DNA of 64,000 bases from Dehalococcoides sp. JdFR-54. Lineage in GTDB: Bacteria > Chloroflexota > Dehalococcoidia > JdFR-54. Of the stretch, positions 19,839-42,983 are shown piece by piece. Location of the stretch: positions 4,037-68,036 of the forward strand of contig MTNP01000008.1 in NCBI GenBank assembly GCA_002011475.1, written 5' to 3'. Within the stretch, counting starts at the first letter, position 1, and the number at the start of each line of letters is the position of its first letter. The notes under the pieces are model-generated. The model saw nothing but the letters and a program-made list of their open reading frames with translations. It was not told the DNA's origin and did not search any database. The position numbers and the translations under genes are program-made.

Positions 19839-19855
19839 CCGGAACTCTGCCAGAA

Positions 19856-21861: not shown

Positions 21862-21886
21862 CCGCACTGCGTGAGGAGACAGGCCT

Positions 21887-23990: not shown

Positions 23991-24010
23991 GTATCGTTTA
24001 TGAATAAACC

Positions 24011-25513: not shown

Positions 25514-25539
25514 ACCAACCGACAATAGGGCTGGAGAAT

Positions 25540-26868: not shown

Positions 26869-26895
26869 CCCCGAGGCTTTTGGAGGCAGAGAGAA

Positions 26896-27051: not shown

Positions 27052-27063
27052 GGAGGTGCGCTC

Positions 27064-30137: not shown

Positions 30138-31887
30138 GGCCGGGTAAACCGGCCTCCTCCGGCGTGAGCAGGGTCACCCGAACCGGCCTGGCAGTGGTCT
30201 TGATCATCTTGGAGAGGCTGGAAGCCGAGGGGTCATAGGTAACCTCGATGTTCTTCAGCCAGTTCTTGTTGTCAGTATCGGGGTAGTCTTCTCGGTAGTG
30301 GTTGGCCCGGCTCTCCGTGCGCAGCAAAGCTGAGAGCGCCATCGCCTGACTCATGAACAGCCTGGGATAAAGATCCAGGGCCTCCAGCCACTCGTAGTTC
30401 CAGGTCTTGGAGCCGTCGCTGACCCTTACTTTAGGTAGCTCCTGGCTCCACATAGCGTCCATCTCCGCCACGGCCTGCCCCAGCCCCTTCCCATCCCTGA
30501 TAACGCTGACATACTTCCACATCAGATCCAGGTGTCTATCCCTGAGCTCCAGCGGGCTGATGCCGTCCCCCCTCTCCAGAGGCGCAAAGACCCGCTGCAT
30601 CTCCTCTTTGACCTGGTCCTGAGGAACCTTGGCCACCATGCCTGCCTTCTTCAGCCTGGTGGCCCGGATGGAGGCGGCCTGCCCCGCCCTGATGCCGGTC
30701 ACCATGAGATCGGGAAGAGAGTTGGAGCCGAGCCTGTTGCCACCGTGAATCCCCCCGGCGGTCTCACCGACGGCGTATAAACCGGGGATGTCCTCAGACT
30801 CAAACATAACATTTACCACCACCCCGCCGTCAGTGTAGTGGGCTGCTGGCGTTATCTCAAAGGGCTCGGTCCTGATATCTATGCCTACGCTCTTGATGTT
30901 GGCAAACATGGAGGGCAGTCTCTTCTCGATGACCTCTGGTGGAATGTGAGTAAGGCTCAGGTAAACACCACCCCTCTCCGTAGCGTTGCCCGCCATATAT
31001 TCCCTATAGATACTTCTGGAGATGAAGTCCCTAGTGGCCACCTCCAACCACTCAGGGGAATACTTGATCATGAACCGCTCGCCGTGCTTGTTGTAGAGCC
31101 TCCCCCCTTCAGACCTGAGGGCCTCACTACCGGCCATGCCTCTCAGGCCCGGGGGCCACCAGATGGCGGTGGGATGCCACTGGAGCATCTCCAGGTCCAC
31201 CACCCTCGCCCCCGCCAGCATGGCCATGTAGTAACCGTCGCCCACATTCCAGTCTCCGGTATAGGCCAGGGGAAAGACCCTTCCCATGCCACCCGTCGCC
31301 AGGACTACTGCCTTGGCCTTGAAAACGATGAACTTGCCGTCTCGAACGCTGACAGCGGTGGCTCCCGCCACCTCGCCCCGCGCATCGATCAGGAGCTTGG
31401 TCACATTTACCTCATCGAGCACCCTGACCGGGGATCTCACCAGCCTGGCCTTGAGCCCCTTTATCATCTCCGAGCCGCTCCTATCCCCGCTGCTCACCGA
31501 GCGGGCATAGGTATGGCCTCCGAATTGGCGCAGGTAGGGTCCCCCATCCTCGTCCCTATCCCAAATGCACCCCCAATCCTCGAGGGCGAAAAGGGCCATG
31601 GGAGCTTCCTTCACAAAAACCTCGACCAGAGCCTGGTCGCTGAGGAAAGAGCCGCCTAGCACTGTGTCGCAGAAATGCTGCCACCACGAGTCCCTGGGAT
31701 CCCTCACGTAAAACCCGGCTATACCACCCAGCGCTGCCGGGGTACACCCGCTGTGCCCGATGAGCCCCTTGACCGCCAGAGTCACCTCCACCCCGTGCTT
31801 GGCGGCCTCGATGGCCGCCACTATACCGGCACCACCCCCACCTACCACCAATACATCAGTCTCTATTACCTCGTCCACTTCCGGCAT
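30127..31887 (-). CDS. Fumarate reductase/succinate dehydrogenase flavoprotein subunit (TfrA/SdhA-like).
   Basis: DVLVVGGGGAGIVAA FAD fold plus FrdA/SdhA catalytic and capping-domain motifs; 586 aa. Confidence 0.85.
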   Translation of the reverse strand: MPEVDEVIETDVLVVGGGGAGIVAAIEAAKHGVEVTLAVKGLIGHSGCTPAALGGIAGFYVRDPRDSWWQHFCDTVLGGSFLSDQALVEVFVKEAPMALFALEDWGCIWDRDEDGGPYLRQFGGHTYARSVSSGDRSGSEMIKGLKARLVRSPVRVLDEVNVTKLLIDARGEVAGATAVSVRDGKFIVFKAKAVVLATGGMGRVFPLAYTGDWNVGDGYYMAMLAGARVVDLEMLQWHPTAIWWPPGLRGMAGSEALRSEGGRLYNKHGERFMIKYSPEWLEVATRDFISRSIYREYMAGNATERGGVYLSLTHIPPEVIEKRLPSMFANIKSVGIDIRTEPFEITPAAHYTDGGVVVNVMFESEDIPGLYAVGETAGGIHGGNRLGSNSLPDLMVTGIRAGQAASIRATRLKKAGMVAKVPQDQVKEEMQRVFAPLERGDGISPLELRDRHLDLMWKYVSVIRDGKGLGQAVAEMDAMWSQELPKVRVSDGSKTWNYEWLEALDLYPRLFMSQAMALSALLRTESRANHYREDYPDTDNKNWLKNIEVTYDPSASSLSKMIKTTARPVRVTLLTPEEAGLPGLAD

Positions 31888-31995: not shown

Positions 31996-32024
31996 TTGAC
32001 ATCGAGCACCCTCTTTGGCAAAAT
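31996..32024 (+). promoter_or_regulatory. Candidate sigma-70 promoter TTGACA-N17-CAAAAT in the divergent tfrA/glmS1 intergenic region.
   Basis: Perfect -35 at 31996-32001; weak -10 at 32019-32024. Confidence 0.3.
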
Positions 32025-32087
32025 GGGGACGACACCTAGAACGCCCTTCGTTGCACGTTTCGATGCGAAGTGGGATTGCCTGGGAAG

Positions 32088-32543
32088 ATGGGGCAGCCAC
32101 AGATCACCATTATAACCGGGGTGTTACGAGATATCCACCACCTTGGCATAAAGGTAGTGGGATATGCTCTCCAGGAAGCTGGCTTCCGACCGGTCTTTAT
32201 CGGGGCCAGATTGGAGCAGGAAGAGTTCATCCAGGCCGCTATCGAGACCGATGCCAAGGCCATCTTTATGTCCTCCTCCAACGGCCACGCCGAGCTTGAC
32301 GCCGTCGATATGCGGGAGAAGTGCACAGAAGTAGGCCTGGGTAATATCCTGCTCTACCTGGGCGGCAATCTGGTCATCGCCGCTCAGGAACAGGACTGGA
32401 CGAGCATTGAAGGCCGATTCAAGGAGATGGGTTACGACCGGGTATATCCACCCGGGGTGAGCCCGGCACAGGTGATCCAGGACTTGAAGGCAGACCTAGC
32501 CCAACGATATGGAATATCCGAAGTGGCTAGGGACGAGCGGTGA
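32088..32543 (+). CDS. Glutamate mutase S-like B12-binding subunit, divergent copy 1. A GTG at 32070 is the alternative start.
   Basis: ITIITGVLRDIHHLG (DxHxxG) and C-terminal GYDRVYPPGVSPAQVIQDLK closely parallel GlmS (…DCHAVGN…GFDRVYPPGTSP…). Confidence 0.75.
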   Translation: MGQPQITIITGVLRDIHHLGIKVVGYALQEAGFRPVFIGARLEQEEFIQAAIETDAKAIFMSSSNGHAELDAVDMREKCTEVGLGNILLYLGGNLVIAAQEQDWTSIEGRFKEMGYDRVYPPGVSPAQVIQDLKADLAQRYGISEVARDER

Positions 32544-34000
32544 AGCTAGAGAACAGGCGCTGGACAGATGAGGAATTCGGGCAAGCCTTCCGGGAGGTAA
32601 TGTCCCTCTATCCCACGGGGCGGGAGGTGGATCTGGATGAGGCGGTGGAATACCTCAGGGCGCTGCCCCCGGAAAAGAGCGTCCCAGCAGCCTTTGACAG
32701 GGCGAAGCGGGATGGGCTGCTCCTGCTGAACCCCAGGGGAGGGGTGGCCACCCTGGAGGCCATGACCCAGCTTCTGCTCTGCCTCCAGAATGAGGGCGGC
32801 GCCGATATCCTGCCCGTAGAGCCGGACAGCTATTCGAGGCGCAATATGTTCCAGGAGGCAGCGGCTGGCCTTGAGGAGAGCCAGAGGCAGGGACGCTCCA
32901 TGCTTAACGGCTTTCCCCTGCCCATCCATGGCGTGGCCACCTGCCGGCGCCTCACCGAGTCGGTGCAGAGGCCCCTGGTCTGTCGCTCAGCGGCGCCCCG
33001 GACCCAATTCGTGAACACCATCGCCTTCGTCAGTGGCATAACCGAGGCAATTGGCAGCGCCACCGGTCTCGCCCTGTGCATGGAGTATGGCCTCGACCTG
33101 GCCCAGGCCATCCAGGATCAGCAGTACACAGCTCGGCTGGTGGGGTGGTTTCAGGAGCGGGGGGTTGCCCTGGGTTTAGATGTCAACAACACTGTAGCCG
33201 CCGGAACCATCGCCGAGCCGAGCCTTTCCATAGCCTACGGGGTCATTGATAGCCTCATCGCCGCCGAACAGGGGGCTCGGTATCAGTCCATCTCCTACCA
33301 GCCCAATCACCACTTCGTCCAGGACCTAGCTGGAATGCGGGCTCAGATGAAGCTGGCCCAGCACTATTTCACCAAGTTCGGATACGACTGGTCTGGGCTG
33401 AGCCAGGCTGTCCACCAGTGGAACGGGCCCTTCCCCCGCGACCCCGCCCGCGCCTATGCCATCATCGTCCTGTCCACAGCCATCGCCTACCTGGGCAAGG
33501 CGAGGCGTATCATGGTGAAGAGCTGCGAGGAGGGATTAGGAGTGCCCACGCCCCAGGCCAACGCCGCCGGCGTGCGCGCTACCCGCCAGGTCGTGGATAT
33601 GCTGCGGGGCCAGGAATTCCCAGAAAGCCCCCAACTCCGAGAGGAGCAGGCGATAATCGAGACCGAGGGCAGGCTGCTCATAGACAAGGTGCTGGAGGTG
33701 GGGGACGGCGATATCGCCGTAGGAGCGGTGCGGGCCCACGAGGCCGGGCTCATCGAGTTCCCCTTCAGCATTAACAAGGCTAACAAGGGACAGATGCTCC
33801 TGGCCCGGGACGCCACCGGGGCCGTCCGATTCCTAGACCCCGGCCACCTCCCCTTCCCCAAGGAGATTCGACAGTTCCACCAGGAGAAACTGCGGGAGAG
33901 ACAGCGCTCCGAGGGCCTAGAACCGCTGGAGATGCTCGTTCGGGATCTGCGGGAGGTGCGGGCTCCGTTCCCTGAGGCCAAAACAAGACGGTTGGTGTAA
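32540..34000 (+). CDS. Glutamate mutase E-like catalytic subunit, copy 1 (methylaspartate-mutase E-chain family).
   Basis: 486 aa, co-linear with Clostridium GlmE (RRWTDEEF, WPTGREVDL, GRSMLNGFP, AEQGARY, AAGVRATRQ). GTG start overlaps the copy-1 S-subunit stop (GTGA). Confidence 0.85.
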   Translation: MKLENRRWTDEEFGQAFREVMSLYPTGREVDLDEAVEYLRALPPEKSVPAAFDRAKRDGLLLLNPRGGVATLEAMTQLLLCLQNEGGADILPVEPDSYSRRNMFQEAAAGLEESQRQGRSMLNGFPLPIHGVATCRRLTESVQRPLVCRSAAPRTQFVNTIAFVSGITEAIGSATGLALCMEYGLDLAQAIQDQQYTARLVGWFQERGVALGLDVNNTVAAGTIAEPSLSIAYGVIDSLIAAEQGARYQSISYQPNHHFVQDLAGMRAQMKLAQHYFTKFGYDWSGLSQAVHQWNGPFPRDPARAYAIIVLSTAIAYLGKARRIMVKSCEEGLGVPTPQANAAGVRATRQVVDMLRGQEFPESPQLREEQAIIETEGRLLIDKVLEVGDGDIAVGAVRAHEAGLIEFPFSINKANKGQMLLARDATGAVRFLDPGHLPFPKEIRQFHQEKLRERQRSEGLEPLEMLVRDLREVRAPFPEAKTRRLV

Positions 34001-34004
34001 CAAG

Positions 34005-34418
34005 GTGATGGGCAAGACCGTAGTGATTGGGACCATAGGCAGTGACTGCCACGTGGTGGGCAACTGGATCATGGCTCGCAGCTTGGAGCAGGCGGGGTTT
34101 AAAGTGGTTCAATTGGGAGCCTGCGTCTCCCAGGAGGAGTTTATCGATGCCGCCGTGGAGGCCAAGGCCGATGCCATCTTCGTCTCTTCCCTCTATGGAA
34201 TGGGCCTGTTCGACTCTGAGGGGCTCAGGGAGAAGTGCATCGAGGCGGGGTTAAAGGACATCCTTCTCTACATCGGCGGCTACCTAGTGACGACCAGACA
34301 GGAATGGCCGGACATTGAGAAACAGTATAAGGACATCGGTTTCGATCGAGTGTATCCCCCCGAGACCAAGCCAGCGGTGGCTATCGCCGACCTGAAGCGG
34401 GATCTGGGATTATCCTAG
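34005..34418 (+). CDS. glmS: Glutamate mutase S subunit (B12-binding), canonical copy 2.
   Basis: MMGKTVVIGTIGSDCHVVGN...SSLYGMG...GFDRVYPPETKP is near-identical in pattern to the GlmS/MutS sigma subunit. Confidence 0.88.
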   Translation: MMGKTVVIGTIGSDCHVVGNWIMARSLEQAGFKVVQLGACVSQEEFIDAAVEAKADAIFVSSLYGMGLFDSEGLREKCIEAGLKDILLYIGGYLVTTRQEWPDIEKQYKDIGFDRVYPPETKPAVAIADLKRDLGLS

Positions 34419-34447
34419 CCCAGAGACCAAGAGGACAGGCAGAGCTT

Positions 34448-35881
34448 ATGGAACTGAGCAGCAGAAGATGGGATGAAGAACAGCTCCTCGAAGTGCGCAA
34501 GGAGGTCCTAGCCCAGTGGCCCACGGGCCGGGAGGTGGACCTGGATGAGGCCGTGGAATACCAGAAGAGCCTGCCCCAGGAGAAGGTCTGGGCTCGAAAA
34601 CTGACCCAGGGCTACCAGCAGGGCACGGTATTCACCATGCCCCAGGTGGGGCGGGCCACCGTGGAAGAGACGGCAACCCATATGAAGTATGTGGAAGAGG
34701 AAGCCGGGGCCGATGCCTGGCTCATCTTCATGGATACCTACACCCGAAAAGGTAGGTTTAAGGACGCCCAGCAGGGCATTGACGAGAGCATCAGGCAGGG
34801 CAGGTCCATGCTAAATGGATATCCCGCGGTTTGCCACGGTGTCAAGGGTCTGCGGCGGATTCGAGAGGTGAGCCAGGTTCCCTTCTATATCACCAATGTG
34901 GATGAAGACCCCAGGCTGGCCACGGAGATCGGGTTTGCCGGGGGCGCCACAGGATATCTGTCCTATGACCTCCACGATTTGCTCCAGCATTCCAAGAATT
35001 ACCCCCTGGATATGAGAATCCAGAACAACCAGTACGGCAACCGGCTTATCTCCTATTACGAGGAGCGGGGAGCCCCCATAGTGGCCTGGTCCTCCGGCCA
35101 CTTCAACGGCTGGGAGCCCCCTGGGCTGAAGATCCCCATAGTTATCCTGACCGCCTTGCTCACCGCGGAACAAGGGGTTAAGCATATCGGGCTTACCCTT
35201 GGCCTATGTGTACACCTGGTGCAGGACGTAGCGGCGCTGAGAGTGCTCCATGAGCTGACCAAGGAATACCTGGCTCGATTCGGCTACTCTGATGTAGCCG
35301 TATATCTCTGGACCTACCCCTTTCTGGGGGTCTGGCCCAGGGATGTGGACCGAACCGCAGCCCTCATCGCCTGGCAGGCAGCTATCAGCGTCCTTTCCGG
35401 GGTTGGCTGTATGATAGTCAAATCCCTGGACGAGGCCTACGTGGTGCCCGAAAAGGAGGGGAATGCCCATGCCGTAAAGATGGCCAAACAGATCATCGAC
35501 GTGGTCGGCAAGCAAAGGCTGGGGGAGAGCCAGGAGCTGAAGCTAGAACAGGAGATGCTCCGACGGGAGGTAAGGGCCAGCTTAGATAAAACCATCGAGC
35601 TGGGAGAGGGAGACGTGGCCATCGGGATGATGAGGGCAGTAGAGCGGGGGGTGCTGGACGGGGTCTTCTCCCCCTGGCTTCGGTGCCACAACAAGGTCCT
35701 CCCGGTGAGGGATGCCACCGGCGCCATCCGCTATCTGGACTATGGCAACGTGCCCCTGCCGCCGGAGGTGGTCGAGTACAATAACCAGAAGATCGCCGAA
35801 AGGGAGAAGCTGGAGGGCGTTAAGGCAGATATCGAGATGGTGATCCAGGACATCAGCTTCCTATCCCGGGCCCTATTCTAG
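34448..35881 (+). CDS. glmE: Glutamate mutase E subunit, copy 2.
   Basis: 477 aa co-linear with GlmE (RRWDEEQLLEVRKEV, WPTGREVDLDEAVEY, GRSMLNGYP, AEQGVKHI). Confidence 0.85.
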   Translation: MELSSRRWDEEQLLEVRKEVLAQWPTGREVDLDEAVEYQKSLPQEKVWARKLTQGYQQGTVFTMPQVGRATVEETATHMKYVEEEAGADAWLIFMDTYTRKGRFKDAQQGIDESIRQGRSMLNGYPAVCHGVKGLRRIREVSQVPFYITNVDEDPRLATEIGFAGGATGYLSYDLHDLLQHSKNYPLDMRIQNNQYGNRLISYYEERGAPIVAWSSGHFNGWEPPGLKIPIVILTALLTAEQGVKHIGLTLGLCVHLVQDVAALRVLHELTKEYLARFGYSDVAVYLWTYPFLGVWPRDVDRTAALIAWQAAISVLSGVGCMIVKSLDEAYVVPEKEGNAHAVKMAKQIIDVVGKQRLGESQELKLEQEMLRREVRASLDKTIELGEGDVAIGMMRAVERGVLDGVFSPWLRCHNKVLPVRDATGAIRYLDYGNVPLPPEVVEYNNQKIAEREKLEGVKADIEMVIQDISFLSRALF

Positions 35882-35911
35882 AGTATTTCCATCAGTAGAA
35901 GGGAGGGTTCC

Positions 35912-37291
35912 ATGGACAGCTCCTTTGAATTCGCCGAAAACATCGTGAATATCAGATACAGCGATCTGCCGGCAGAAGTTGTGGAAATCACCAAGAGGTG
36001 CATTCTGGATACTCTAGGCGTTATGCTGGCGGCGAGCAGCCTGGCGCCGGACGTAAAGGAAATTGTAGAGATGGTCAAGGAGGGCGGAGGCAAGGAGGAG
36101 AGCACCATCATCGCCTTCGGGGGGAGGGTGACGGCATGGATGGCCGCCTTCGCTAATGGAACCATGGGCCATCCCCTAGATTATGATGATACCCATGACC
36201 CCGCCATTGTCCATCCTACAGCACACACCATACCCGCCGCCTTCGCTATAGCGGAGCGAATTGGCGGAGTCAATGGCGAGGACTTTATCACCGCCGTAGC
36301 CTTAGCCAATGATATGGTATGTAGATTGGGGCTGGCCTTGAATAAAGGACTGTTCGGCTATGGCTGGCTAAGGCCAGTGGTCCTGGGGTTTTTCAGCTCT
36401 ACGGCGGCCGCCGGTAAGCTGCTGGGGCTAAACCGGGATCAGATGGTAAACGCCTTCGGTCTCGTCCTCAACCAAGTAGCCGGCAGCCTGGAGCCCGTCC
36501 ATACCCCCGGGTCTGCCTTCCGGGCGATACGGGATGCTTTCTCAGCCAAGGCGGGCGTTCTCTCCGCCCTCATGGCAGAGCGGGGTGTACCCGGCGACAG
36601 GAACAGCCTGCAGGGGAAATATGGCCTGTTCAACCTATATTTCCAGGGCGACTATGACCCCACCCGACTCACCGCCGAGCTGGGCAAAAGGTTTGAAGGG
36701 GTCAACGTCAGCTTTAAGCCTTGGCCTGCCTGTCGGAATGCGCACCCCTTCATAACCGCGACCCTGGATATCGTAAAGGGAAATGGTATCAAACCGGAGG
36801 ACACCGAAGCTATCCTGCTGGCGGGGGGCAGCTTTGCCCAATCCCTGTGTGAGCCTCTGGAGGAGAGACGGAGGCCCAAGGCAAGCATCGACGCCAAGGT
36901 CAGTTTGCCCTTTATCATCGGGGCAGCCCTGGCCCGGGGAAAGGTTGTCCTCTCGGACTTCACCCCCGCGGGCCTCAATGACCCCGCGGCTCTGGAAATG
37001 GCCCAAAAGGTGACCTTCAGGTTCGAGGAGCGCTTCAACACAAGTGGCATCGAGCCCGCCTTGGTCGAAATAAAGACCAAGGACGGCGGGACCTACTCAA
37101 AGGAAGTGGAGTTTGCCTACGGCCACCCTCAGAACCCCATGACCCTGGATGACCTGATAGCTAAGTTCAGGGATTGTGCCTCCTATTCGGTGAGGCCCCT
37201 GGCCAACGATGCCGTTGACCAAGTAATCCAGATGGTCACCAACTTGGAGGGCGTAGAGGACGTAGGTGCCGTTGTCCGCTTGCTGGGTTAG
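35912..37291 (+). CDS. MmgE/PrpD-family protein (2-methylcitrate dehydratase / cis-aconitate decarboxylase / IDS-epimerase superfamily).
   Basis: N-terminal FAENIVNIRYSDLPAEVVEITKRCILDTLGVMLAASS signature; 459 aa. Confidence 0.8.
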   Translation: MDSSFEFAENIVNIRYSDLPAEVVEITKRCILDTLGVMLAASSLAPDVKEIVEMVKEGGGKEESTIIAFGGRVTAWMAAFANGTMGHPLDYDDTHDPAIVHPTAHTIPAAFAIAERIGGVNGEDFITAVALANDMVCRLGLALNKGLFGYGWLRPVVLGFFSSTAAAGKLLGLNRDQMVNAFGLVLNQVAGSLEPVHTPGSAFRAIRDAFSAKAGVLSALMAERGVPGDRNSLQGKYGLFNLYFQGDYDPTRLTAELGKRFEGVNVSFKPWPACRNAHPFITATLDIVKGNGIKPEDTEAILLAGGSFAQSLCEPLEERRRPKASIDAKVSLPFIIGAALARGKVVLSDFTPAGLNDPAALEMAQKVTFRFEERFNTSGIEPALVEIKTKDGGTYSKEVEFAYGHPQNPMTLDDLIAKFRDCASYSVRPLANDAVDQVIQMVTNLEGVEDVGAVVRLLG

Positions 37292-37432
37292 CACCGCTGG
37301 CACCTGACCACCCTCCCTTACCGCCGGGAATCCGATTTTATGCCAAGTAAGAATGGTGGAACGACGGCTGAAAGGGGCTCTTCGTGGCACGGGCTCTTTG
37401 TCTGACTTGCCTCTGGGCGTAGGAGCGAAGGC

Positions 37433-38839
37433 ATGGGAGTCATCTTACTTATAGACTTTGGCAGCACTTATACCAAAATAAGGGCGGTAGACCTGGAAAA
37501 GGAAGAGGTGGTAGGGAGCTGCCAGGCGCCCAGCACGGTCGACACAGATATGACCATTGGGCTACAGGCGGCCTTCGATGCTCTCCTTGCTCAGACGGGC
37601 GTCGGCAACACCGATATAGAGGGCAAGCTTGCTTGTAGCAGTGCTGCCGGCGGCTTGCGCCTGGTGGCCAGTGGCCTGGTCCCCCGGCTGACCACTGAGG
37701 CGGCCAAGAGAGCTGCCCTCGGCGCCGGCGCCAAGGTCATAGGGGTCTATTCCTACCAGCTCACCCCCAAGGAGATAGCCGAGTTGGAGCAGAAGCGCCC
37801 CGACCTGGTGCTGCTGGTGGGTGGCACCGACGGCGGGAATACAGAGGTCATCCTCCACAATGCCAGGATGCTGGCCAACTCCGATCTGGTCTGCCCCATA
37901 GTGGTTGCCGGCAACAAAGTGGCCGCTGAGGAGGTCGAGCACATCCTCCACACCGCTGGCAAGTATGTGGCGGTGGCCGCTAATGTGATGCCAGAGGTCA
38001 GTCAGCTCAACGTAGAGCCGACTCGCGCCGTCATCAGAGAGATGTTTATGAGGCGCATCACCCATGGGAAGGGCCTGAACAAAGCCGAGAGACTCGTGGG
38101 CAGCATTATTATGCCCACTCCCATGGCTGTGCTCCGCGGCGCCGCCTTGCTGGCTCAAGGCACCCCAGAAGAGGCGGGGCTGGGCGACCTCATCGTTGTC
38201 GATGTTGGCGGCGCCACCACCGATGTGGATTCCCTGACGGAAGGCAACCCCACCCAGCCCGGCGTAGTGGCAAAGGGCTTGCCCGAACCCTACGCCAAGC
38301 GGACGGTGGAGGGTGACCTGGGAATTCGATACAGCGCACCCCATATCCTGGAAATCGCCGGCGAGAAGCGCCTGCGAGAGAACCTGATGGCAAGGGACGA
38401 GGGGCTCGCTGGCGACCTGGACCTAGGCGCCAAGCTGTCCTACTTGTCCGACCATATCGATTTTGTCCCCCAGACCCAGCATGACTCCCACCTCGATGTC
38501 GCCCTGGCCCGCAGCTCGGTGGAGATCGCCATGCAAAGACACGCCGGAGTGATAGAGACCTGCTATCTGCCATCGGGCACTGTCTACCTCCAGCATGGCA
38601 AGGACCTGACCCAGGTTAAGCGTGTCATCGGGACCGGCGGCATATTTAGCTACGGGCAGCACCCCCGCTGGATACTGGAGGGAACGCTATACAGCCAGCG
38701 GGAACCCCTGTCCCTCAGGCCCAAGGCGCCAGAATTCTTCATAGATGAACGATACCTGCTCTATGCCATAGGCTTGCTGGCCGAGATCGCCCCTGAGAAA
38801 GCCCTCCGGATAATGAAAAAACACCTGAGAAAGGTATAA
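37433..38839 (+). CDS. glmL: GlmL/MutL-type glutamate-mutase-associated chaperone (ASKHA-fold ATPase).
   Basis: VILLIDFGSTYTKIRAVD N-terminus and ~468 aa, as in component L of clostridial glm operons. Confidence 0.65.
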   Translation: MGVILLIDFGSTYTKIRAVDLEKEEVVGSCQAPSTVDTDMTIGLQAAFDALLAQTGVGNTDIEGKLACSSAAGGLRLVASGLVPRLTTEAAKRAALGAGAKVIGVYSYQLTPKEIAELEQKRPDLVLLVGGTDGGNTEVILHNARMLANSDLVCPIVVAGNKVAAEEVEHILHTAGKYVAVAANVMPEVSQLNVEPTRAVIREMFMRRITHGKGLNKAERLVGSIIMPTPMAVLRGAALLAQGTPEEAGLGDLIVVDVGGATTDVDSLTEGNPTQPGVVAKGLPEPYAKRTVEGDLGIRYSAPHILEIAGEKRLRENLMARDEGLAGDLDLGAKLSYLSDHIDFVPQTQHDSHLDVALARSSVEIAMQRHAGVIETCYLPSGTVYLQHGKDLTQVKRVIGTGGIFSYGQHPRWILEGTLYSQREPLSLRPKAPEFFIDERYLLYAIGLLAEIAPEKALRIMKKHLRKV

Positions 38840-38860: not shown

Positions 38861-40387
38861 ATGGTTATAGGCGACATAGCCATCAGGAACGCCAGGAACT
38901 ACCCCAGCAAAATAGCCCTGGTCTTCGGGAATGACAGGTACACCTTCAAGGAATTCAACGACAGGGTCAATCGCCTGACCAGGGCTCTTCTAGACTCGGG
39001 GGTGGAACGGGGCGGGAGGATAGCCATTCTGGCCGAGAACTGCCCTCAATATGCCGAGGCCTACTTCGCCACGGCCAAAGGGGGGTTGGTCATCCTGCCC
39101 TTGAATGCCAGGCTGGCGGGGCCGGAGCTCGTCTATATCATAAACGATGCGCAGGTCAGCACCCTGCTCGTAGAAAAGGAATTCTTAGGGCTCATCGATT
39201 CCATATGGTCTCAGCTTGAGACGGTCGCGAATCTCATAACCATAGGGGAGGCGGGGGAGAATAGCTACGAGCTCTTGATCTCCCGGTATCCCCCAGAGGA
39301 GCCTGACATCCGAGTGGATGAAGACGACCTGGCTTGCCTTATGTATACCTCGGGCACCACTGGCAGGCCCAAAGGGGCCATGCTCACCCACCGAAATCTC
39401 ATCGCCAACGCCCTCAATCCCATATTGGCCTTTCAGTTCCGCCATGACGATATAACCCTGCACCTGGCCGCCCTCTATCATGTCGCCGCCCAGTGGCCGT
39501 TGATGAGCCACTTCTACCTTGGGGCCACCAACGTTCTATTGAAGAAGTTCGAGCCGCTGGCTACCCTGAAAGTCGTCGAGACGGAGAGGATTACCACCCT
39601 GAATGCAGTCCCGGTCATGATATCTGGTCTCCTCGACCAGCTGGATAAGGAAGAGCATGACCTATCCAGCGCAAGCTGGATAGGCTATGGGGCTTCCCCA
39701 ATGCCCCTGCCATTGATAAAGAGAGCCCTACATAGATTCGGCCAAGTGATGGTTCAGCTATACGGTCTAACGGAGAGCGGCGGCATAGTCACTTGGCTCC
39801 CCCAGGAGGACCATATCATCGAGGGGCCAGAGGAGAAATTGAGGCGGCTCACGTCCTGTGGCAAGGAGATTATTAATGTGGAGGTGAGGGTGGTGGATGA
39901 GGCCGGCCAGGATGTGGCTCCAGGACAAGTGGGCGAGATAATAGTAAGGGGTGACAATGTAATGAAGGGCTATTGGGCCCAGCCCGAGGCCACGGCGGAA
40001 ACCCTGAAGGGAGGATATCTCCATACCGGCGACCTGGCCACTGTAGATGAAGAGGGATATATCTACATTGTGGATAGGAAAAAGGACATGATCATCAGCG
40101 GAGGGGAGAACATCTACTCCCGCGAGGTGGAGGAGGCCATCTTTGCCCACCCCGCGGTGCGGGATGTGGCCGTCATCGGCGTCCCCGATGAAAAATGGGG
40201 CGAGGCGGTCAAGGCAGTAGTGGTCCTCAAAGAAGGCGCCACAGCGACTGAGGAGGAGATAATAGAATTCTGTCGGCAACGCATTGCCAGCTATAAGAAG
40301 CCGAAGTCTGTGGACTTCGTCCCCGAACTGCCCAGGAATGCTACGGGCAAGGTATTGAAGACACTGCTGCGGGAGCAATATGGCTAG
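38861..40387 (+). CDS. AMP-forming acyl-CoA synthetase / acid--CoA ligase.
   Basis: YTSGTTGRPKG AMP-binding motif; GEIIVRGDNVMKGY; C-terminal domain with invariant Lys (YKKPKSV). Confidence 0.88.
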   Translation: MVIGDIAIRNARNYPSKIALVFGNDRYTFKEFNDRVNRLTRALLDSGVERGGRIAILAENCPQYAEAYFATAKGGLVILPLNARLAGPELVYIINDAQVSTLLVEKEFLGLIDSIWSQLETVANLITIGEAGENSYELLISRYPPEEPDIRVDEDDLACLMYTSGTTGRPKGAMLTHRNLIANALNPILAFQFRHDDITLHLAALYHVAAQWPLMSHFYLGATNVLLKKFEPLATLKVVETERITTLNAVPVMISGLLDQLDKEEHDLSSASWIGYGASPMPLPLIKRALHRFGQVMVQLYGLTESGGIVTWLPQEDHIIEGPEEKLRRLTSCGKEIINVEVRVVDEAGQDVAPGQVGEIIVRGDNVMKGYWAQPEATAETLKGGYLHTGDLATVDEEGYIYIVDRKKDMIISGGENIYSREVEEAIFAHPAVRDVAVIGVPDEKWGEAVKAVVVLKEGATATEEEIIEFCRQRIASYKKPKSVDFVPELPRNATGKVLKTLLREQYG

Positions 40388-40422: not shown

Positions 40423-41688
40423 ATGCTTAGGCCCAGGTTCTTCTACGGCTGGGCGATTGCGGGGGTGTTGGTGATCATTGGCTTTGTACTGGCCACCCCC
40501 TTCAACTCCACCCTCTCCATCTTCCTCAAACCCATGGGCGAGGAACTGGGCTGGTCGCGCACTGCCATCTCTGGGGCGGTGGCCCTGGGCTCCCTCCTGG
40601 CCGCTGCCATCAGTTTCTGCATCGGTCCTCTCCTCGACCGCTGGGGCTCGCGGGTCGCCATTTCCGCAGCGGTGGCTCTCATGGGGCTGGCCGTTATGGG
40701 CCTATCGCGGTGCACCGCCCTGTGGCACCTCTACCTTTTCCTGGGGCTCGCCCGGGCGCTGGCCAACGGCGTCCTCGATATCGGCATCGTGGTCACCAGC
40801 TCCAACTGGTTTATCCGCTGGCGAGGACGGGTGCTGGGTATGGCCCAACTGGGCATCCGGGTTGGTCAGGCGCTATTTCCCCTGGTGGCTGCCCTCCTCA
40901 TCGCCTCTCTGGACTGGCGCAATGCCTGGGTAGGCGTGGGGGGGCTGGCCATTTTTCTGGCCTTTCTGCCCTCCGTCATTTTCCTGCGTCGCCGCCCCGA
41001 AGACCACAACCTCACCCCCGATGGCCTGCCTCCGCCCAGCCCGACCCAAGGGGACGTAACAGCTACCACGGCGACCGAGCCAATGTGGACTGCCCGCCAG
41101 GCGGCAGGCACCAGCACCTTCTGGTTGCTGACTGCAGCCTTCAGCCTGTTCTTCCTAGTCGCGGCGGCCATGAACCTGCACCAGTACCCCTACCTGACTG
41201 ACATTGGCATCGACCCGGGGGTGGCCGTGGGGGCACTGAGCACCTTCTTTATCAGCGCCGCCGTGGGGGCCTTGCTCCTGGGCTCCCTGGCCGACCGTTT
41301 CCCGGTCAAGGTCCTCCTGGGCACCGTCCAGGCCGGCGCCGCCCTCGGCATCTTTATGCTCATCCTCACCAGGGGGCCGGCCATGCTCTACGCATATGCC
41401 GTTTTCTACGGCATATGCTTCGGAGGCTCCTTTCCCCTTTTCTCCCTGGCCTTCGTGAGGCACTACGGCCGGGCCTCGGCAGGCAGCATACGGGGCCTTT
41501 ACTGGCCGCTATGCATGGTCTTCAACGCCATCGGCCCGGTCTTCGCCGGCTGGATGTTCGACCGGATGGGAAACTACAATCTGGTCTTCACCATATTCTG
41601 CATCATGTTCCTGGTTGGCAGCACCCTGGTCTGGCTCTCCCGCGCCCCCACGTCCTTCCCATCGCCATCCCCTTCCCCCCAGAATTGA
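40423..41688 (+). CDS. MFS transporter (oxalate/formate-antiporter-like organic-acid carrier).
   Basis: 12-TM profile; motif A GPLLDRWGSRV. Confidence 0.78.
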   Translation: MLRPRFFYGWAIAGVLVIIGFVLATPFNSTLSIFLKPMGEELGWSRTAISGAVALGSLLAAAISFCIGPLLDRWGSRVAISAAVALMGLAVMGLSRCTALWHLYLFLGLARALANGVLDIGIVVTSSNWFIRWRGRVLGMAQLGIRVGQALFPLVAALLIASLDWRNAWVGVGGLAIFLAFLPSVIFLRRRPEDHNLTPDGLPPPSPTQGDVTATTATEPMWTARQAAGTSTFWLLTAAFSLFFLVAAAMNLHQYPYLTDIGIDPGVAVGALSTFFISAAVGALLLGSLADRFPVKVLLGTVQAGAALGIFMLILTRGPAMLYAYAVFYGICFGGSFPLFSLAFVRHYGRASAGSIRGLYWPLCMVFNAIGPVFAGWMFDRMGNYNLVFTIFCIMFLVGSTLVWLSRAPTSFPSPSPSPQN

Positions 41689-41738
41689 CGGCCTGGGTGA
41701 TTTCCTCTACACTGCCATCAAAATAGCGTAACAGTGAC

Positions 41739-42983
41739 ATGGCCACACCGGTCGCCGCGGGTCGGGTCTATTATGGCTGGATAATAGTGGCTGCCTGTCT
41801 CCTCCTCACCGCCACTGCCTTCGGCATACAGTACTGCTACGGCATATTCTTCAAGCCGCTTCAACAGGACTTCGGCTGGAGCCGAGCCACCACTGCCTCG
41901 GTAATGTCCTTTCATATGATCTTCTATGGCATCTCGGCCTTCATCAGCGGCTGGTGCACCGACAGATATGGGCCCCGAATGACAGTGGCCGCCGGGGGCC
42001 TGCTCATGGGCCTGGGGCTGGTATTGAGCAGCCAGATATCCGCCGTTTGGCAGCTATACCTCCTCTACAGTTTGCCTCTAGCCTTCGGCATTAGCACCTG
42101 CTGGTATCCTATAGTTACCACCCTCAGCCGATGGTTCAGCGGCAGAAGGGGGCTCGCCCTCGGCACAACCCGGGTTGGCCACGGGCTGGGCATCCTGGGC
42201 ATCTCGCCCCTGGTCAATTATCTGATCACCATGTTCGATTGGCGTCTCTCCTACATAATTGTTGGGCTCATCGCCTGGGCAGTTATCGTCCCCACCGCCC
42301 TGCTCTTGAAGAAGGAGCCCAGAGAGACCACCTATGCCCCCCTCCCCACCGATATGGCCCCATCCGTTCCCCAGTTTTCCCTGCGAGATGCCCTGAGAAC
42401 CCCGAACCTATGGTTTCTGATTTTTATGCAGCTCCTGTGCAGCGTCTGTTTCCGCATGGTCATGGTGCACCTGGTGCCCTATGCCACCGATGTCGGGATA
42501 TCAGCGGCGACGGCGTCGCTGGTCCTCGGCCTTATTGGTGGCGCCAACATCATAGGCGGGGTATTGATGGGTATCGCCCAGGATAGGTTCGGCGCCAGAG
42601 CCAGCTTCATCATCTCCGTGTTATTACAGTCCATATCCCTCTTCTGGCTTACCACCCTTCGCACCACCGCTGCCTTCTTCGGCTTTGCCTTGCTCTTCGG
42701 GTTCACCCTTGGGGGGTATATGGTTCAGTTCTATGGGCTCACCGCGGGCCTGTTCGGGCTGCGCTCCGTAGGTGCCATCAATGGGGCGCTGGGGACAGGG
42801 GCCGGGATCGGCGGCGCCCTGGGCCCCTTTTCAGCAGGCTATTTCTTCGACCGTACTGCCAGCTACTCCGTCCCCTTCCTTATCGCCGCCGGGGCCCTTC
42901 TGTTAGCTGGATTGCTGGCCATCTCCCTGAGGTCGCCAAGTAGGTCCCAGCACCAGCCCCCCAATGCAGTCCCGGGGGTCTGA
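41739..42983 (+). CDS. MFS transporter, second paralogue.
   Basis: 12-TM profile; GWCTDRYGPRM motif A. Confidence 0.78.
   Translation: MATPVAAGRVYYGWIIVAACLLLTATAFGIQYCYGIFFKPLQQDFGWSRATTASVMSFHMIFYGISAFISGWCTDRYGPRMTVAAGGLLMGLGLVLSSQISAVWQLYLLYSLPLAFGISTCWYPIVTTLSRWFSGRRGLALGTTRVGHGLGILGISPLVNYLITMFDWRLSYIIVGLIAWAVIVPTALLLKKEPRETTYAPLPTDMAPSVPQFSLRDALRTPNLWFLIFMQLLCSVCFRMVMVHLVPYATDVGISAATASLVLGLIGGANIIGGVLMGIAQDRFGARASFIISVLLQSISLFWLTTLRTTAAFFGFALLFGFTLGGYMVQFYGLTAGLFGLRSVGAINGALGTGAGIGGALGPFSAGYFFDRTASYSVPFLIAAGALLLAGLLAISLRSPSRSQHQPPNAVPGV

What the first reader, a model, noticed from the sequence alone, without database searches (positions are those of the whole stretch)
32088..38839. 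Tandem duplicated, diverged glutamate-mutase-like B12 mutase pairs with a PrpD-family protein and GlmL chaperone
Two consecutive S(B12-binding)/E(catalytic) pairs of the glutamate mutase family sit back to back. Copy 2 (34005-35881) looks canonical (GSDCHVVGN, GFDRVYPPETKP). Copy 1 (32088-34000) is clearly diverged: the His-on loop is RDIHHLG and the S subunit has an extra C-terminal tail. They are followed by an MmgE/PrpD-family protein, the GlmL/MutL-type mutase chaperone, an acyl-CoA ligase, two MFS carriers and an omega-aminotransferase. Glutamate mutase is the only characterised member of the GlmE family, so a diverged paralogue in the same operon, next to a PrpD-type dehydratase/decarboxylase, suggests a new B12 carbon-skeleton rearrangement of a branched di- or tricarboxylic acid.
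Basis: partly seen in the sequence, partly recalled or inferred. Interest (0 to 1): 0.85.

Follow-up and report, generated by a model that had tools for sequence, protein, structure and literature searches.

The report
Two orphan glutamate-mutase-like B12 mutases
One operon of an uncultured Dehalococcoidia bacterium encodes two complete vitamin-B12 "glutamate mutase" enzyme pairs, but neither keeps the residues that hold glutamate, and both belong to a large unstudied branch of the family that is linked to organic-acid breakdown genes, so they probably catalyse carbon-skeleton rearrangements not yet described.

Summary
The genes are real and sit where the finding says: S1/E1, S2/E2, an MmgE/PrpD-family protein, GlmL, an acyl-CoA ligase, two MFS carriers and a class-III aminotransferase, all close-packed on the + strand.

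The pairs are not a recent tandem duplication. E1 and E2 are 34-35% identical, each is closer to canonical GlmE (about 40%), and each falls in its own clade (bootstrap 100 and 98). Copy 2 is also not canonical. S2 has a textbook B12 loop, but E2 keeps only 1 of 7 glutamate-site residues. E1 keeps the three arginines but loses His150, Glu171, Tyr177 and Tyr181.

That seven-residue signature is invariant in true glutamate mutases, even at 26-40% identity. It tracks methylaspartate ammonia-lyase: 111 of 130 canonical loci have it, against 0 of 41 non-canonical loci and none in the window.

Residues recalled as the cofactor (adenosyl-ribose) contacts, both DxHxxG loops and the fold (TM 0.97) are intact.

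E2-type genes recur beside PrpD-family, GlmL and CoA-dependent genes (ligases, transferases, dehydrogenases). E1-type genes recur beside itaconate-cluster-like CoA-transferase, hydratase and lyase genes.

Best reading: two distinct adenosylcobalamin mutases for non-glutamate carboxylic acids. The substrates are unknown.

The parts
31996..32024 (+). Promoter-like site (TTGACA-17-CAAAAT with an upstream TG) in the 182-nt divergent intergenic region ahead of S1
   Evidence: Consensus scan. This is weak: the number of sites in the region is not above the shuffled expectation.
32070..32543 (+). S1, the small B12-binding subunit of mutase 1 (151-157 aa; start at GTG 32070 or ATG 32088)
   Evidence: PF02310. 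NF002612 scores 157 bits; TIGR01501 scores 136.8 against a cut-off of 135.8. The DxHxxG motif is kept as D-I-H-H-L-G. It belongs to an S1-like subfamily with a 1-aa deletion before the Asp, SSL changed to SSS, and a 2-aa insertion. That subfamily pairs with E1-like genes elsewhere.
32540..34000 (+). E1, the catalytic TIM-barrel subunit of mutase 1 (486 aa); its start overlaps the S1 stop by 4 nt
   Evidence: PF06368, E = 8e-126. TIGR01503 scores 415 against a cut-off of 390. It is about 39% identical to C. cochlearium GlmE over residues 1-470. Signature: R66, R100, R149, S150, I171, L177, M181, K326, E330. The E1 clade has 22 sequences and bootstrap 100/100.
34005..34418 (+). S2, the small B12-binding subunit of mutase 2 (137 aa)
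   Evidence: PF02310. NF002612 scores 189 bits and TIGR01501 176 bits. It has a canonical GSDCHVVGN loop. It is 63-67% identical to the S genes next to E2 orthologues.
34448..35881 (+). E2, the catalytic subunit of mutase 2 (477 aa)
   Evidence: PF06368, E = 7e-116. TIGR01503 scores 397 against a cut-off of 390. Signature: Q66, R100, T149, N150, L171, D177, H181, K326, E330. The E2 clade has 89 sequences and bootstrap 98/100. Orthologues at 65-73% identity include six fetched loci that carry the same signature. The AlphaFold model has pLDDT 95.5, TM 0.97 and rmsd 1.1 A to glutamate mutase E.
35912..37291 (+). MmgE/PrpD-family protein of the 'RAIRD' subfamily (459 aa)
   Evidence: PF03972 plus PF19305. 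The best solved relatives are iminodisuccinate epimerase (133 bits) and cis-aconitate decarboxylase (107 bits). PrpD proper scores only 33 bits. The positions of CAD His159 and Lys207 are Leu and Arg here (GWLRP, FRAIRD). These changes are shared with orthologues next to E2 orthologues and, in variant form, with a large subfamily.
37433..38839 (+). GlmL/MutL-type mutase accessory protein (468 aa), a single copy for both pairs
   Evidence: PF13941, E = 1e-170. NF040745 scores 616 bits against a cut-off of 475.
38861..40387 (+). AMP-forming acyl-CoA ligase (508 aa)
   Evidence: PF00501 plus PF13193. NF004837 (a subfamily model) scores 577 bits. A 41% identical ligase follows S-E-PrpD-GlmL in L086.
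40423..42983 (+). Two MFS carriers of the oxalate/formate-lactate type (421 and 414 aa)
   Evidence: PF07690. The SfMCT and 2A0111 models match below their cut-offs.
43135..44451 (+). Class-III (omega) aminotransferase (438 aa), the last gene of the + strand run
   Evidence: PF00202, E = 3e-82, with no equivalog reached. It was not found next to any E1- or E2-like gene elsewhere, so whether it belongs to the pathway is uncertain.
28572..31887 (-). Divergently transcribed soluble fumarate-reductase-like pair: a TfrA-like flavoprotein (30127-31887) and a TfrB-like FeS subunit fused to a CCG domain (28572-30137). Possible context only.
   Evidence: NF004900 521 bits, NF004898 255 bits, both below cut-off.
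18882..28245 (+). Neighbouring CoA-dependent dicarboxylate genes. They are a CitE/Ccl-like lyase, a SucCD-like pair, methylmalonyl-CoA mutase small and large subunits, two acetyl-CoA hydrolase/transferases and a MaoC-like hydratase. Context only.
   Evidence: Homologues of the MaoC-like and ACH genes also flank E2-like or E1-like genes in L005, L090, L088, L173 and L174.

Best explanation
S1/E1 and S2/E2 are two separate, functional adenosylcobalamin-dependent carbon-skeleton mutases built like glutamate mutase. Each has a small His-on B12-binding subunit and a TIM-barrel catalytic subunit, and they share one GlmL-type accessory protein. Neither is a glutamate mutase.

Shown:
- Both keep the family fold and both S subunits keep the DxHxxG loop.
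- Both E subunits keep Arg100, Lys326 and Glu330.
- Both have replaced the residues that bind glutamate.
- Each belongs to its own old subfamily.
- Methylaspartate ammonia-lyase is missing.

Inferred mechanism:
- Each enzyme takes a small free carboxylic acid and moves a carbon substituent by the usual 5'-deoxyadenosyl-radical 1,2-shift. This interconverts a linear (glutarate-type) skeleton and a methyl-branched (substituted-succinate-type) skeleton.
- E1 keeps the three-arginine claw but has a hydrophobic Ile/Leu/Met patch where glutamate's amino group would sit. It most likely acts on a dicarboxylate without an amino group. Candidates in order are 2-methyleneglutarate/3-methylitaconate, then methylsuccinate/glutarate, then 2-hydroxyglutarate/3-methylmalate.
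- E2 keeps only Arg100 and has the clade-typical Asp/Glu177 and His181. It acts on a different acid that cannot be named.
- The PrpD-family protein takes the place that methylaspartate ammonia-lyase has in the classical pathway. It would work on the substituted-succinate side through an enolate, as an epimerase, isomerase or eliminase.
- The acid is then activated by the ligase or by CoA-transferases. It is broken down by the hydratase, lyase, acyl-CoA dehydrogenase and methylmalonyl-CoA mutase genes nearby.
For: Family and fold:
- Pfam and NCBIfam hits.
- Full-length alignments to glutamate mutase E at E = 1e-109 to 1e-117.
- The E2 model has TM 0.97 and rmsd 1.1 A to 6h9e_B and 1cb7_B.

Cofactor side intact:
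- K326, E330 and R100 are kept, and 35 positions are conserved across all three clades.
- Both S subunits keep DxHxxG.
- GlmL scores above its equivalog cut-off.

Not glutamate mutase:
- E1 keeps 3 of 7 signature residues and E2 keeps 1 of 7.
- The signature RRRHEYY is invariant in 105 of 105 canonical hits. It is also invariant in 26 distant 50%-cluster representatives that are only 24-36% identical to E2, including fused S-E forms.
- MAL is present in 111 of 130 canonical loci and 0 of 41 non-canonical loci (Fisher p = 4e-25). There is no MAL in the window.

Selection for a new function rather than decay:
- E2 orthologues at 65-73% identity include six fetched loci that carry the same QRTNLDH signature.
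- E1's group keeps RRRS[IVC]LM.
- Each clade has its own conserved residues. In the E2 clade these are H181 (93%), W297 (91%), D152 (84%) and W411 (83%). In the E1 clade they are E169 (91%) and G331 (100%).

Separate enzymes:
- Every relative of either type occurs with its own S gene and without the other type (0 of 171 loci have two E genes).

Pathway context:
- A PrpD-family gene lies next to E2-like genes in 9 of 21 loci, against 0 of 130 canonical loci (p = 3e-9). This includes every long locus with the QRTNLDH signature.
- Neighbours are CoA_transf_3, acyl-CoA dehydrogenase, enoyl-CoA hydratase, a CitE-like lyase, acyl-CoA ligases or synthetases, and TRAP, MFS or TctC carriers.
- The E1-like protein P0126, whose signature RRRSVLM is close to E1's RRRSILM, sits beside mesaconyl-CoA-hydratase-type, CoA_transf_3 and HpcH-lyase genes, GlmL and a PduO-type adenosyltransferase.

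Literature:
- All characterised MmgE/PrpD enzymes act on a 1,4-dicarboxylate backbone through an enolate.
- One of them is a methylsuccinate isomerase encoded with CoA-transferase, MaoC-hydratase, HpcH-lyase and acyl-CoA dehydrogenase genes (PMC12290011).
- An alkylsuccinate synthase cluster combines a B12 mutase, its chaperone and an MmgE/PrpD protein (PMC7180275).
Against: - No substrate has been tested. Every substrate name is an inference from a few active-site residues and from neighbouring genes.
- The list of glutamate-contact residues comes from my memory of the C. cochlearium structure papers. It is supported here only indirectly, by its strict conservation and its co-occurrence with MAL.
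- E2 has lost two of the three arginines, which fits a dicarboxylate substrate poorly.
- The PrpD partner is not one orthologous group. L081/L082 pair an E2 orthologue with a PrpD-family protein that is only 30% identical to the window's.
- The window's PrpD subfamily also occurs without any mutase (L175/L176).
- This PrpD lacks a His and a Lys that the 2025 paper treats as family-wide, so the assumed enolate chemistry may not hold.
- 12 of 21 E2-like loci show no PrpD gene within the fetched span.
- Many fetched loci are related, so the counts are not independent.
- The aminotransferase in the operon is unexplained.
Confidence: 0.6

Rival explanations
1. One reading: S2/E2 is the ordinary glutamate mutase of the organism, and S1/E1 is a recently duplicated copy that has taken on a new function.
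For: S2 has a textbook B12 loop and scores well above the GlmS cut-offs. E2 passes the TIGR01503 cut-off, at 397 against 390.
Against: E2 lacks R66, R149, H150, E171, Y177 and Y181. These residues are invariant in all sequences that co-occur with MAL, even at 26-40% identity. The window has no MAL. E1 and E2 are 34-35% identical and lie in separate clades with bootstrap 100 and 98. Neither gene has unusual GC3.
Confidence: 0.04
2. The mutases act on CoA thioesters made by the ligase or CoA-transferases, as methylmalonyl-CoA mutase does, rather than on free acids.
For: CoA ligases, CoA_transf_3, acyl-CoA dehydrogenases and enoyl-CoA hydratases surround nearly all E1- and E2-like genes. The loss of two carboxylate-binding arginines in E2 could reflect a carboxylate replaced by a thioester.
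Against: The E2 model superposes on glutamate mutase E at 1.1 A over 474 columns. It aligns to the acyl-CoA mutases only at TM about 0.55, so nothing suggests a remodelled barrel for CoA. The characterised PrpD-family methylsuccinate isomerase acts only on the free acid (PMC12290011). E1 keeps all three arginines.
Confidence: 0.13
3. E2, or both enzymes, rearranges an amino acid other than glutamate. The class-III aminotransferase at the end of the operon makes or removes that amino acid.
For: An omega-aminotransferase lies in the same gene run. The E2 clade has a conserved acidic residue at position 177 that could hold an ammonium group. Amino-acid-type carriers lie near some relatives: AzlCD in L086 and a Peripla_BP_6 ABC system in L170.
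Against: The aminotransferase was not found beside any other E1- or E2-like gene. It follows a 151-nt gap. The conserved neighbours are carboxylic-acid and CoA enzymes, and PrpD-family substrates are polycarboxylates.
Confidence: 0.12
4. The four subunits form one hetero-oligomeric enzyme, with an E1-E2 heterodimer in place of the E2 homodimer of glutamate mutase.
For: The genes are tightly packed (gaps of -4, 4 and 29 nt) and share a single GlmL gene.
Against: All relatives of E1 and of E2 occur alone with their own matching S gene. No other locus has two E genes. S1 and S2 each cluster with the S subunits of their own E type.
Confidence: 0.05
5. One or both pairs are decaying or non-catalytic relics, for example B12-binding proteins without mutase activity.
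For: Both E subunits and S1 score only just above the NCBIfam cut-offs. A nearby glycyl-radical enzyme gene in the window is frameshifted.
Against: The reading frames are intact and full-length. The cofactor-side residues and 35 family-wide positions are conserved. The altered sites are themselves conserved in orthologues. The model confidence is high.
Confidence: 0.03

Closest known systems
Glutamate mutase / methylaspartate mutase GlmS-GlmE (MutS-MutE) with GlmL, from Clostridium cochlearium and C. tetanomorphum (EC 5.4.99.1)
   Same: Two-subunit architecture. About 39% identity over the full length of E. E2 has a near-identical predicted fold (TM 0.97). The S subunits carry the DxHxxG His-on loop. 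R100, K326 and E330 are conserved. A GlmL gene lies in the operon.
   Different: Six (E2) or four (E1) of the seven glutamate-site residues are replaced. There is no methylaspartate ammonia-lyase. The gene order is S-E rather than the usual glmS-glmL-glmE-mal. The neighbours are PrpD-family and CoA-dependent genes.
2-Methyleneglutarate mutase (Mgm, with MgmL) of the Eubacterium barkeri nicotinate fermentation
   Same: From general knowledge, it is an adenosylcobalamin carbon-skeleton mutase acting on a free dicarboxylate without an amino group, and it has a GlmL-like partner. This is the kind of reaction E1's site suggests (three arginines kept, hydrophobic patch).
   Different: From memory, Mgm is a single-polypeptide enzyme and is not a member of the GlmE family. 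No sequence comparison was made here. Its downstream enzymes (a PrpF-type isomerase, an aconitase-type dehydratase) are not those seen here.
Itaconate/methylsuccinate degradation cluster Ict-Ich-Ccl-Mcd-Msi of Pseudomonas and Cupriavidus (PMC12290011)
   Same: [quoted passage not shown]
   Different: That cluster has no B12 mutase. The window's PrpD-family protein has Leu and Arg where the isomerase family has His and Lys.
Alkylsuccinate synthase gene clusters of anaerobic alkane degraders (Desulfoglaeba alkanexedens; PMC7180275)
   Same: They combine a B12 carbon-skeleton mutase, its chaperone, an MmgE/PrpD-family protein and a carboxyl transferase. L086 likewise has S-E-PrpD-GlmL-ligase-carboxyltransferase.
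   Different: There the mutase is of the methylmalonyl-CoA mutase type with a MeaB-like G-protein, and it acts on CoA esters. The glycyl-radical enzymes near the window's and L088's mutases resemble eliminases, not fumarate-adding enzymes.

Membership tests
Glutamate mutase (EC 5.4.99.1), E subunit | Homology to the GlmE/MutE TIM-barrel subunit over its full length, with the same fold | tested here: met
   PF06368 at E = 8e-126 (E1) and 7e-116 (E2). PDB glutamate mutase E at 1e-117 and 1e-109 over residues 1-470. The E2 model has TM 0.97 and rmsd 1.1 A. The E1 fold was not modelled.
Glutamate mutase (EC 5.4.99.1), E subunit | Glutamate/methylaspartate-binding residues Arg66, Arg100, Arg149, His150, Glu171, Tyr177 and Tyr181. 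The list is recalled from the C. cochlearium structure papers. It is checked here only by its invariance in all MAL-linked sequences. | tested here: not met
   E1 has R, R, R, S, I, L, M. E2 has Q, R, T, N, L, D, H. Canonical RRRHEYY is found in 105 hits and in 26 distant cluster representatives.
Glutamate mutase (EC 5.4.99.1), E subunit | Adenosyl-ribose contacts Lys326 and Glu330 (recalled from mutagenesis studies) | tested here: met
   K and E are present in E1 and E2. K326 (sometimes R) and E330 are kept in almost all family members examined.
Glutamate mutase (EC 5.4.99.1), S subunit | Base-off/His-on cobalamin-binding motif DxHxxG | tested here: met
   S2 has D-C-H-V-V-G and S1 has D-I-H-H-L-G. 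S1 has SSS in place of SSL.
Glutamate mutase pathway (methylaspartate route) | Genomic linkage with methylaspartate ammonia-lyase | tested here: not met
   tblastn with a Pfam-verified MAL finds nothing in the 64-kb window. MAL is present in 111 of 130 canonical loci and 0 of 41 non-canonical loci. The rest of the genome was not available.
Glutamate mutase pathway (methylaspartate route) | GlmL/MutL accessory protein encoded with the mutase | tested here: met
   NF040745 scores 616 bits against a cut-off of 475.
Glutamate mutase (EC 5.4.99.1) | Catalysis of L-glutamate <-> (2S,3S)-3-methylaspartate | not testable with these tools
   This needs an enzyme assay.
MmgE/PrpD family | Two-domain MmgE_PrpD_N plus MmgE_PrpD_C architecture | tested here: met
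   PF03972 at 220 bits and PF19305 at 101 bits.
MmgE/PrpD family (characterised members: PrpD, cis-aconitate decarboxylase, IDS epimerase, methylsuccinate isomerase) | The conserved carboxylate-binding and catalytic set described in PMC12290011. In CAD numbering these are D93, H103, H159, K207 and K272 (recalled), plus the His three residues before D93. | tested here: inconclusive
   The H..D motif, H103 and K272 equivalents are present. H159 is Leu and K207 is Arg (GWLRP, FRAIRD), and orthologues share these changes. This rests on alignment only.
2-Methylcitrate dehydratase PrpD | Score above the equivalog cut-offs | tested here: not met
   The best PrpD equivalog scores 49 bits against a cut-off of 950. 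PDB PrpD scores 33 bits.
2-Methyleneglutarate mutase | Sequence relationship to Mgm and activity on 2-methyleneglutarate | not tested
The resemblance is one of reaction type only.

The most novel reading that the evidence does not exclude
The GlmE family is not a one-reaction family. About three quarters of its sequence clusters lack the glutamate site: 83 of the 111 full-length 50%-identity representatives examined, counting as glutamate-type the 26 canonical ones and two that differ only by His150Gly. The window holds two of these non-canonical lineages.

At least one of the two would catalyse a rearrangement that no characterised B12 enzyme performs. Examples are methylsuccinate <-> glutarate, or another alkyl-substituted succinate <-> linear dicarboxylate, on the free acid.

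Together with a new kind of PrpD-family enzyme, this would give anaerobes a route to break down branched C5/C6 dicarboxylic acids such as those derived from itaconate.
Probability: 0.4. Interest if true: 0.85.

Novelty: new variant of a known kind. Interest (0 to 1): 0.7.

Why it matters
Only about a dozen adenosylcobalamin-dependent isomerases are known, and each new one has opened up a pathway. Glutamate mutase has been treated as the sole function of its family, and databases name every member 'methylaspartate mutase'.

Here two members lack the glutamate site while keeping the cofactor side, the fold and an accessory protein. Similar non-canonical proteins make up most of the family's sequence diversity. 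They are concentrated in Chloroflexota and some Betaproteobacteria, next to genes for breaking down organic acids.

If their substrates are found, three things follow:
- The list of radical carbon-skeleton rearrangements would grow.
- A widespread annotation error would be corrected.
- It could explain how abundant uncultured bacteria degrade branched di- and tricarboxylic acids.

It also gives a simple sequence test for true glutamate mutases: seven residues plus linkage to the ammonia-lyase.

Tried and rejected
- Collection scans. Scans of genome contigs and metagenome contigs with an E2-clade alignment returned mostly canonical Firmicutes glmS-glmL-glmE-mal operons. They served as the control set. 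Useful contexts came from exact-protein look-ups instead.
- Conservation of the tandem. The partial gene upstream of S in the closest E2 locus (L086) is a CitE-like lyase, not an E1 relative. No locus has two E genes.
- Horizontal acquisition of S1/E1. GC3 z-scores are -0.85 and +1.34, which is unremarkable.
- S1's C-terminal tail as a clade marker. Rejected: S1-like proteins elsewhere lack it and several S2-like proteins have tails.
- B12 riboswitch or other RNA. No Rfam family reaches its threshold anywhere in the window.
- Fumarate-adding enzyme link. The glycyl-radical enzymes in the window and in L088 are closest to diol/glycerol dehydratase, HypD and CutC. Benzylsuccinate and methylalkylsuccinate synthases score lower, so a direct 'X-succinate synthase feeds the mutase' idea is not supported.
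- PrpD as an exclusive partner. A 55% identical PrpD homologue lies in a cluster with no mutase.
- Literature. No paper in the library links glutamate or methylaspartate mutase with PrpD/MmgE. None describes 'glutamate mutase-like' enzymes or the family in Chloroflexota. A search for the glutamate mutase active-site residues found nothing usable.
- Not done. E1 was not modelled, and pocket residues could not be mapped in 3D because model coordinates are not returned.

Full report
**What is there.** The + strand from about 32.07 to 44.45 kb carries ten close-packed genes:
- S1, 32070 or 32088 to 32543
- E1, 32540-34000
- S2, 34005-34418
- E2, 34448-35881
- an MmgE/PrpD-family protein, 35912-37291
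- GlmL, 37433-38839
- an AMP-forming acyl-CoA ligase, 38861-40387
- two MFS carriers, 40423-41688 and 41739-42983
- a class-III aminotransferase, 43135-44451

Gaps between the genes are -4, 4, 29, 30, 141, 21, 35, 50 and 151 nt. Identical proteins in public data are named as coming from a Dehalococcoidia MAG, on a 153.6-kb contig.

**The two pairs are not a recent duplication.**
- E1 and E2 are 35% identical, and S1 and S2 are 48% identical.
- In a 237-sequence alignment, each E is nearer to canonical GlmE (about 40%) than to the other E (34%).
- E1 falls in a clade of 22 sequences (bootstrap 100/100) and E2 in a clade of 89 (98/100).
- E2 has orthologues at 65-73% identity. E1's nearest relative is 53% identical.
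- S1 groups with the S genes that accompany E1-like genes. They share a one-residue deletion before the Asp, SSS in place of SSL, and a two-residue insertion. S2 groups with the S genes of E2-like genes.
- None of the 171 fetched loci that contain an E gene has a second one. Every E1- or E2-type relative inspected stands alone, in nearly every case next to an S gene of matching type.
- The window therefore places two old subfamilies side by side. GC3 gives no sign of recent import.

**Neither E is a glutamate mutase by its substrate site.** The alignments to C. cochlearium glutamate mutase E have no gaps up to about residue 217, so the numbering carries over directly.

From memory of the structure and mutagenesis papers, glutamate and methylaspartate are held by Arg66, Arg100 and Arg149 (the 'arginine claw'), His150, Glu171, Tyr177 and Tyr181. 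Lys326 and Glu330 contact the adenosyl ribose. I could not retrieve a paper to cite for this list, so I tested it empirically.

| Protein | 66 | 100 | 149 | 150 | 171 | 177 | 181 |
|---|---|---|---|---|---|---|---|
| Canonical GlmE | R | R | R | H | E | Y | Y |
| E1 | R | R | R | S | I | L | M |
| E2 | Q | R | T | N | L | D | H |

- All 105 canonical hits have RRRHEYY.
- So do 26 cluster representatives that are only 24-36% identical to E2, including fused S-E proteins of about 640 aa.
- The gene after glmE is methylaspartate ammonia-lyase (verified by Pfam) in 111 of 130 loci with the signature. It is present in 0 of 41 loci without it (p = 4e-25).
- Both E1 and E2 keep K326 and E330.
By substrate site, E2 is the more diverged of the two.
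- The window has no MAL.

**The enzymes look functional.**
- Both S subunits keep DxHxxG.
- 35 positions are conserved across the canonical, E1 and E2 clades.
- The altered sites are themselves conserved among orthologues. The six fetched E2-orthologue loci (68-73% identical) all carry QRTNLDH, and RRRS[IVC]LM recurs in E1's group.
- Each clade has its own conserved residues.
- An AlphaFold model of E2 has mean pLDDT 95.5. It superposes on glutamate mutase E at TM 0.97 and rmsd 1.1 A. Acyl-CoA mutases and aminomutases match only at TM about 0.55.
- GlmL scores well above its equivalog cut-off.

**The wider family.** A full HMMER scan of 1.84 billion cluster representatives found 189 relatives at E <= 1e-30. 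I examined 111 full-length representatives. Only 26 have the canonical signature, and two more differ only by H150G. The remaining 83 (about three quarters) are non-canonical, and almost all of them keep R100 and K326/E330. Most of the family's sequence diversity therefore lies outside glutamate mutase. Where sources name organisms, the non-canonical proteins closest to E1 and E2 come mainly from Chloroflexota, with some Betaproteobacteria and Thermodesulfobacteriota. One Chloroflexi MAG (GCA_016190665.1) has at least four E1-like paralogues.

**Context of E2-type genes.**
- The closest orthologues lie in these arrangements:
  - PrpD-S-E-GlmL, behind two CoA_transf_3 genes and an IclR regulator (L081/82)
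  - acyl-CoA dehydrogenase, ADP-forming CoA synthetase, then S-E-PrpD-DctPQ (L084/85)
  - CitE-like lyase, then S-E-PrpD-GlmL-AzlCD, AMP-ligase and carboxyltransferase (L086)
- More distant members sit among CoA_transf_3, acyl-CoA dehydrogenase, enoyl-CoA hydratase, ETF and SDR genes.
- A PrpD-family gene accompanies 9 of 21 E2-like loci and none of 130 canonical loci (p = 3e-9).
- The window's MaoC-like and acetyl-CoA-transferase genes also have homologues beside E2-like genes in L005 and L090.

**Context of E1-type genes.**
- P0126 is 49% identical to E1 and carries RRRSVLM against E1's RRRSILM. It lies next to two mesaconyl-CoA-hydratase-type genes, a CoA_transf_3, an HpcH lyase, GlmL, IclR, TctC and a PduO-type adenosyltransferase.
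- Other E1-like genes lie beside LysR, SBP_bac_5, CoA_transf_3 pairs and a FAS1_DH-type hydratase. One sits next to a glycyl-radical enzyme and two PrpD-family genes.

**The PrpD-family protein.**
- Its best solved relatives are iminodisuccinate epimerase and cis-aconitate decarboxylase, not PrpD.
- Gonner et al. 2025 (PMC12290011) showed that the MmgE/PrpD protein of the itaconate cluster is an (S)-(R)-methylsuccinate isomerase.
- They also argued that all characterised family members act on a 1,4-dicarboxylate backbone through an enolate.
- That cluster (CoA_transf_3, MaoC hydratase, HpcH lyase, acyl-CoA dehydrogenase, MmgE/PrpD) uses the same families that surround the mutases here.
- The window's protein and its orthologues have Leu and Arg where those enzymes have a His and a Lys (GWLRP, FRAIRD). 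This is part of a large 'RAIRD' subfamily.
- That subfamily is not confined to mutase clusters.
- One E2 orthologue pairs with a PrpD-family protein that is only 30% identical to the window's.
- The link is therefore to the family, not to one orthologue.
- A published alkylsuccinate synthase cluster also combines a B12 mutase, its chaperone and an MmgE/PrpD protein (PMC7180275).

**Most likely mechanism.**
- Shown: two intact GlmES-type enzymes with altered substrate pockets, one GlmL gene, no MAL, and a PrpD-family and CoA-dependent neighbourhood.
- Inferred, the reaction: each enzyme carries out an adenosyl-radical 1,2-shift on a small free carboxylic acid. This interconverts a linear and a methyl-branched (substituted succinate) skeleton.
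- Inferred, the next step: the PrpD-family enzyme acts on the succinate-type side, in the position MAL holds in the classical route.
- Inferred, downstream: the acid is then activated to a CoA ester. It is degraded by hydratase, lyase and dehydrogenase steps, with methylmalonyl-CoA mutase (21887-23990) handling any propionyl-CoA.
- E1's arginine claw plus hydrophobic patch points to a dicarboxylate without an amino group. My order is 2-methyleneglutarate/3-methylitaconate, then methylsuccinate/glutarate, then 2-hydroxyglutarate/3-methylmalate.
- I cannot name E2's substrate.
- I put 0.9 on 'neither is a glutamate mutase' and 0.6 on the model as a whole.

**Rivals.** In order of weight:
- CoA-ester substrates, 0.13
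- an amino-acid substrate tied to the aminotransferase, 0.12
- a single heteromeric enzyme, 0.05
- relics, 0.03

The evidence for and against each is given in its own section.

**Novelty.** The architecture, cofactor and fold are those of a known enzyme, so this is a new variant of a known kind rather than something categorically new. No paper in the searchable library describes non-glutamate members of this family or their link to PrpD-family genes. That library lacks most subscription-journal papers, so this is not proof of absence.

**Limits.**
- All functional statements are computational.
- Locus counts include related contigs.
- The contact-residue list is recalled, not cited.
- The trees are neighbour-joining on one alignment.
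- Pocket positions could not be checked in three dimensions.

Noticed in passing
window 6076-6492 (+) and 6588-8537 (+); activase 8628-9542; TRAP carrier 2885-6002: A PFL2/glycerol-dehydratase-type glycyl-radical enzyme is split by a frameshift near 6400-6490. The N-terminal ~115 aa are in one frame and the rest in another, with an open frame bridging them. It is closest to diol dehydratase, HypD and CutC and is below every equivalog cut-off. Its activase and a TRAP carrier are adjacent. An E1-like mutase in L088 also sits next to a PFL2-type glycyl-radical enzyme.
   Followed up: partly
window 11874-28245 (+): A dense block of C4/C5-dicarboxylate and CoA genes. It contains an HMGL-like gene, class-I fumarase alpha and beta (14018-15609), and two succinyl/citryl-CoA-synthetase-like pairs. 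It also contains a CitE/Ccl-like lyase (18882-19838) and methylmalonyl-CoA mutase small and large subunits (21887-23990). The block ends with two acetyl-CoA hydrolase/transferases and a MaoC-like hydratase with no NCBIfam match.
   Followed up: partly
window 28572-31887 (-): A soluble fumarate-reductase-like pair resembling thiol:fumarate reductase TfrA/TfrB. The FeS subunit is fused to a CCG domain. It is transcribed divergently from the mutase operon. It could reduce or oxidise a substituted succinate or fumarate.
   Followed up: no
window 48984-50435, 56231-58712, 10504-11763 (-), 58771-60015, 61211-62608: A LarA homologue of the hydroxyacid-isomerase type (455 bits, below its cut-off). Two 2-hydroxyacyl-CoA-dehydratase/BzdN-like subunits. 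Three family-III CoA-transferases. All point to 2-hydroxyacid and dicarboxylate metabolism.
   Followed up: no
L052, L054, L068, L072, L076, L077, L079, L154 (and P0088-type proteins): A third non-canonical GlmE clade with signature RRLSLYY (R149L, H150S, E171L). It keeps the glmS-glmL-glmE gene order but has no methylaspartate ammonia-lyase. It is found in Rokubacteria, Alphaproteobacteria, Syntrophaceae and others.
   Followed up: partly
L087, L088, L173, L174 (GCA_016190665.1, Chloroflexi MAG): At least four E1-like paralogues in one genome. Each sits beside some of: LysR regulators, family-5 solute-binding proteins, CoA_transf_3 pairs, a FAS1_DH-type hydratase and small UGSC-family proteins. 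L174 shows no adjacent S gene in the called genes.
   Followed up: partly
window 35912-37291; P0380-P0498; L175/L176: The PrpD-family 'RAIRD' subfamily replaces a His and a Lys that a 2025 paper treats as conserved in all MmgE/PrpD proteins. It has several hundred close relatives in the public protein collection (887 hits at E <= 1e-60). It also occurs in a UbiD/thiolase/aldehyde-oxidoreductase cluster with no mutase.
   Followed up: partly
E2 clade, GlmE positions 91, 222, 297, 411 and 152/153/174/177: E2-clade proteins gain several conserved tryptophans and acidic residues relative to canonical GlmE. Whether these line the pocket could not be checked without model coordinates.
   Followed up: no
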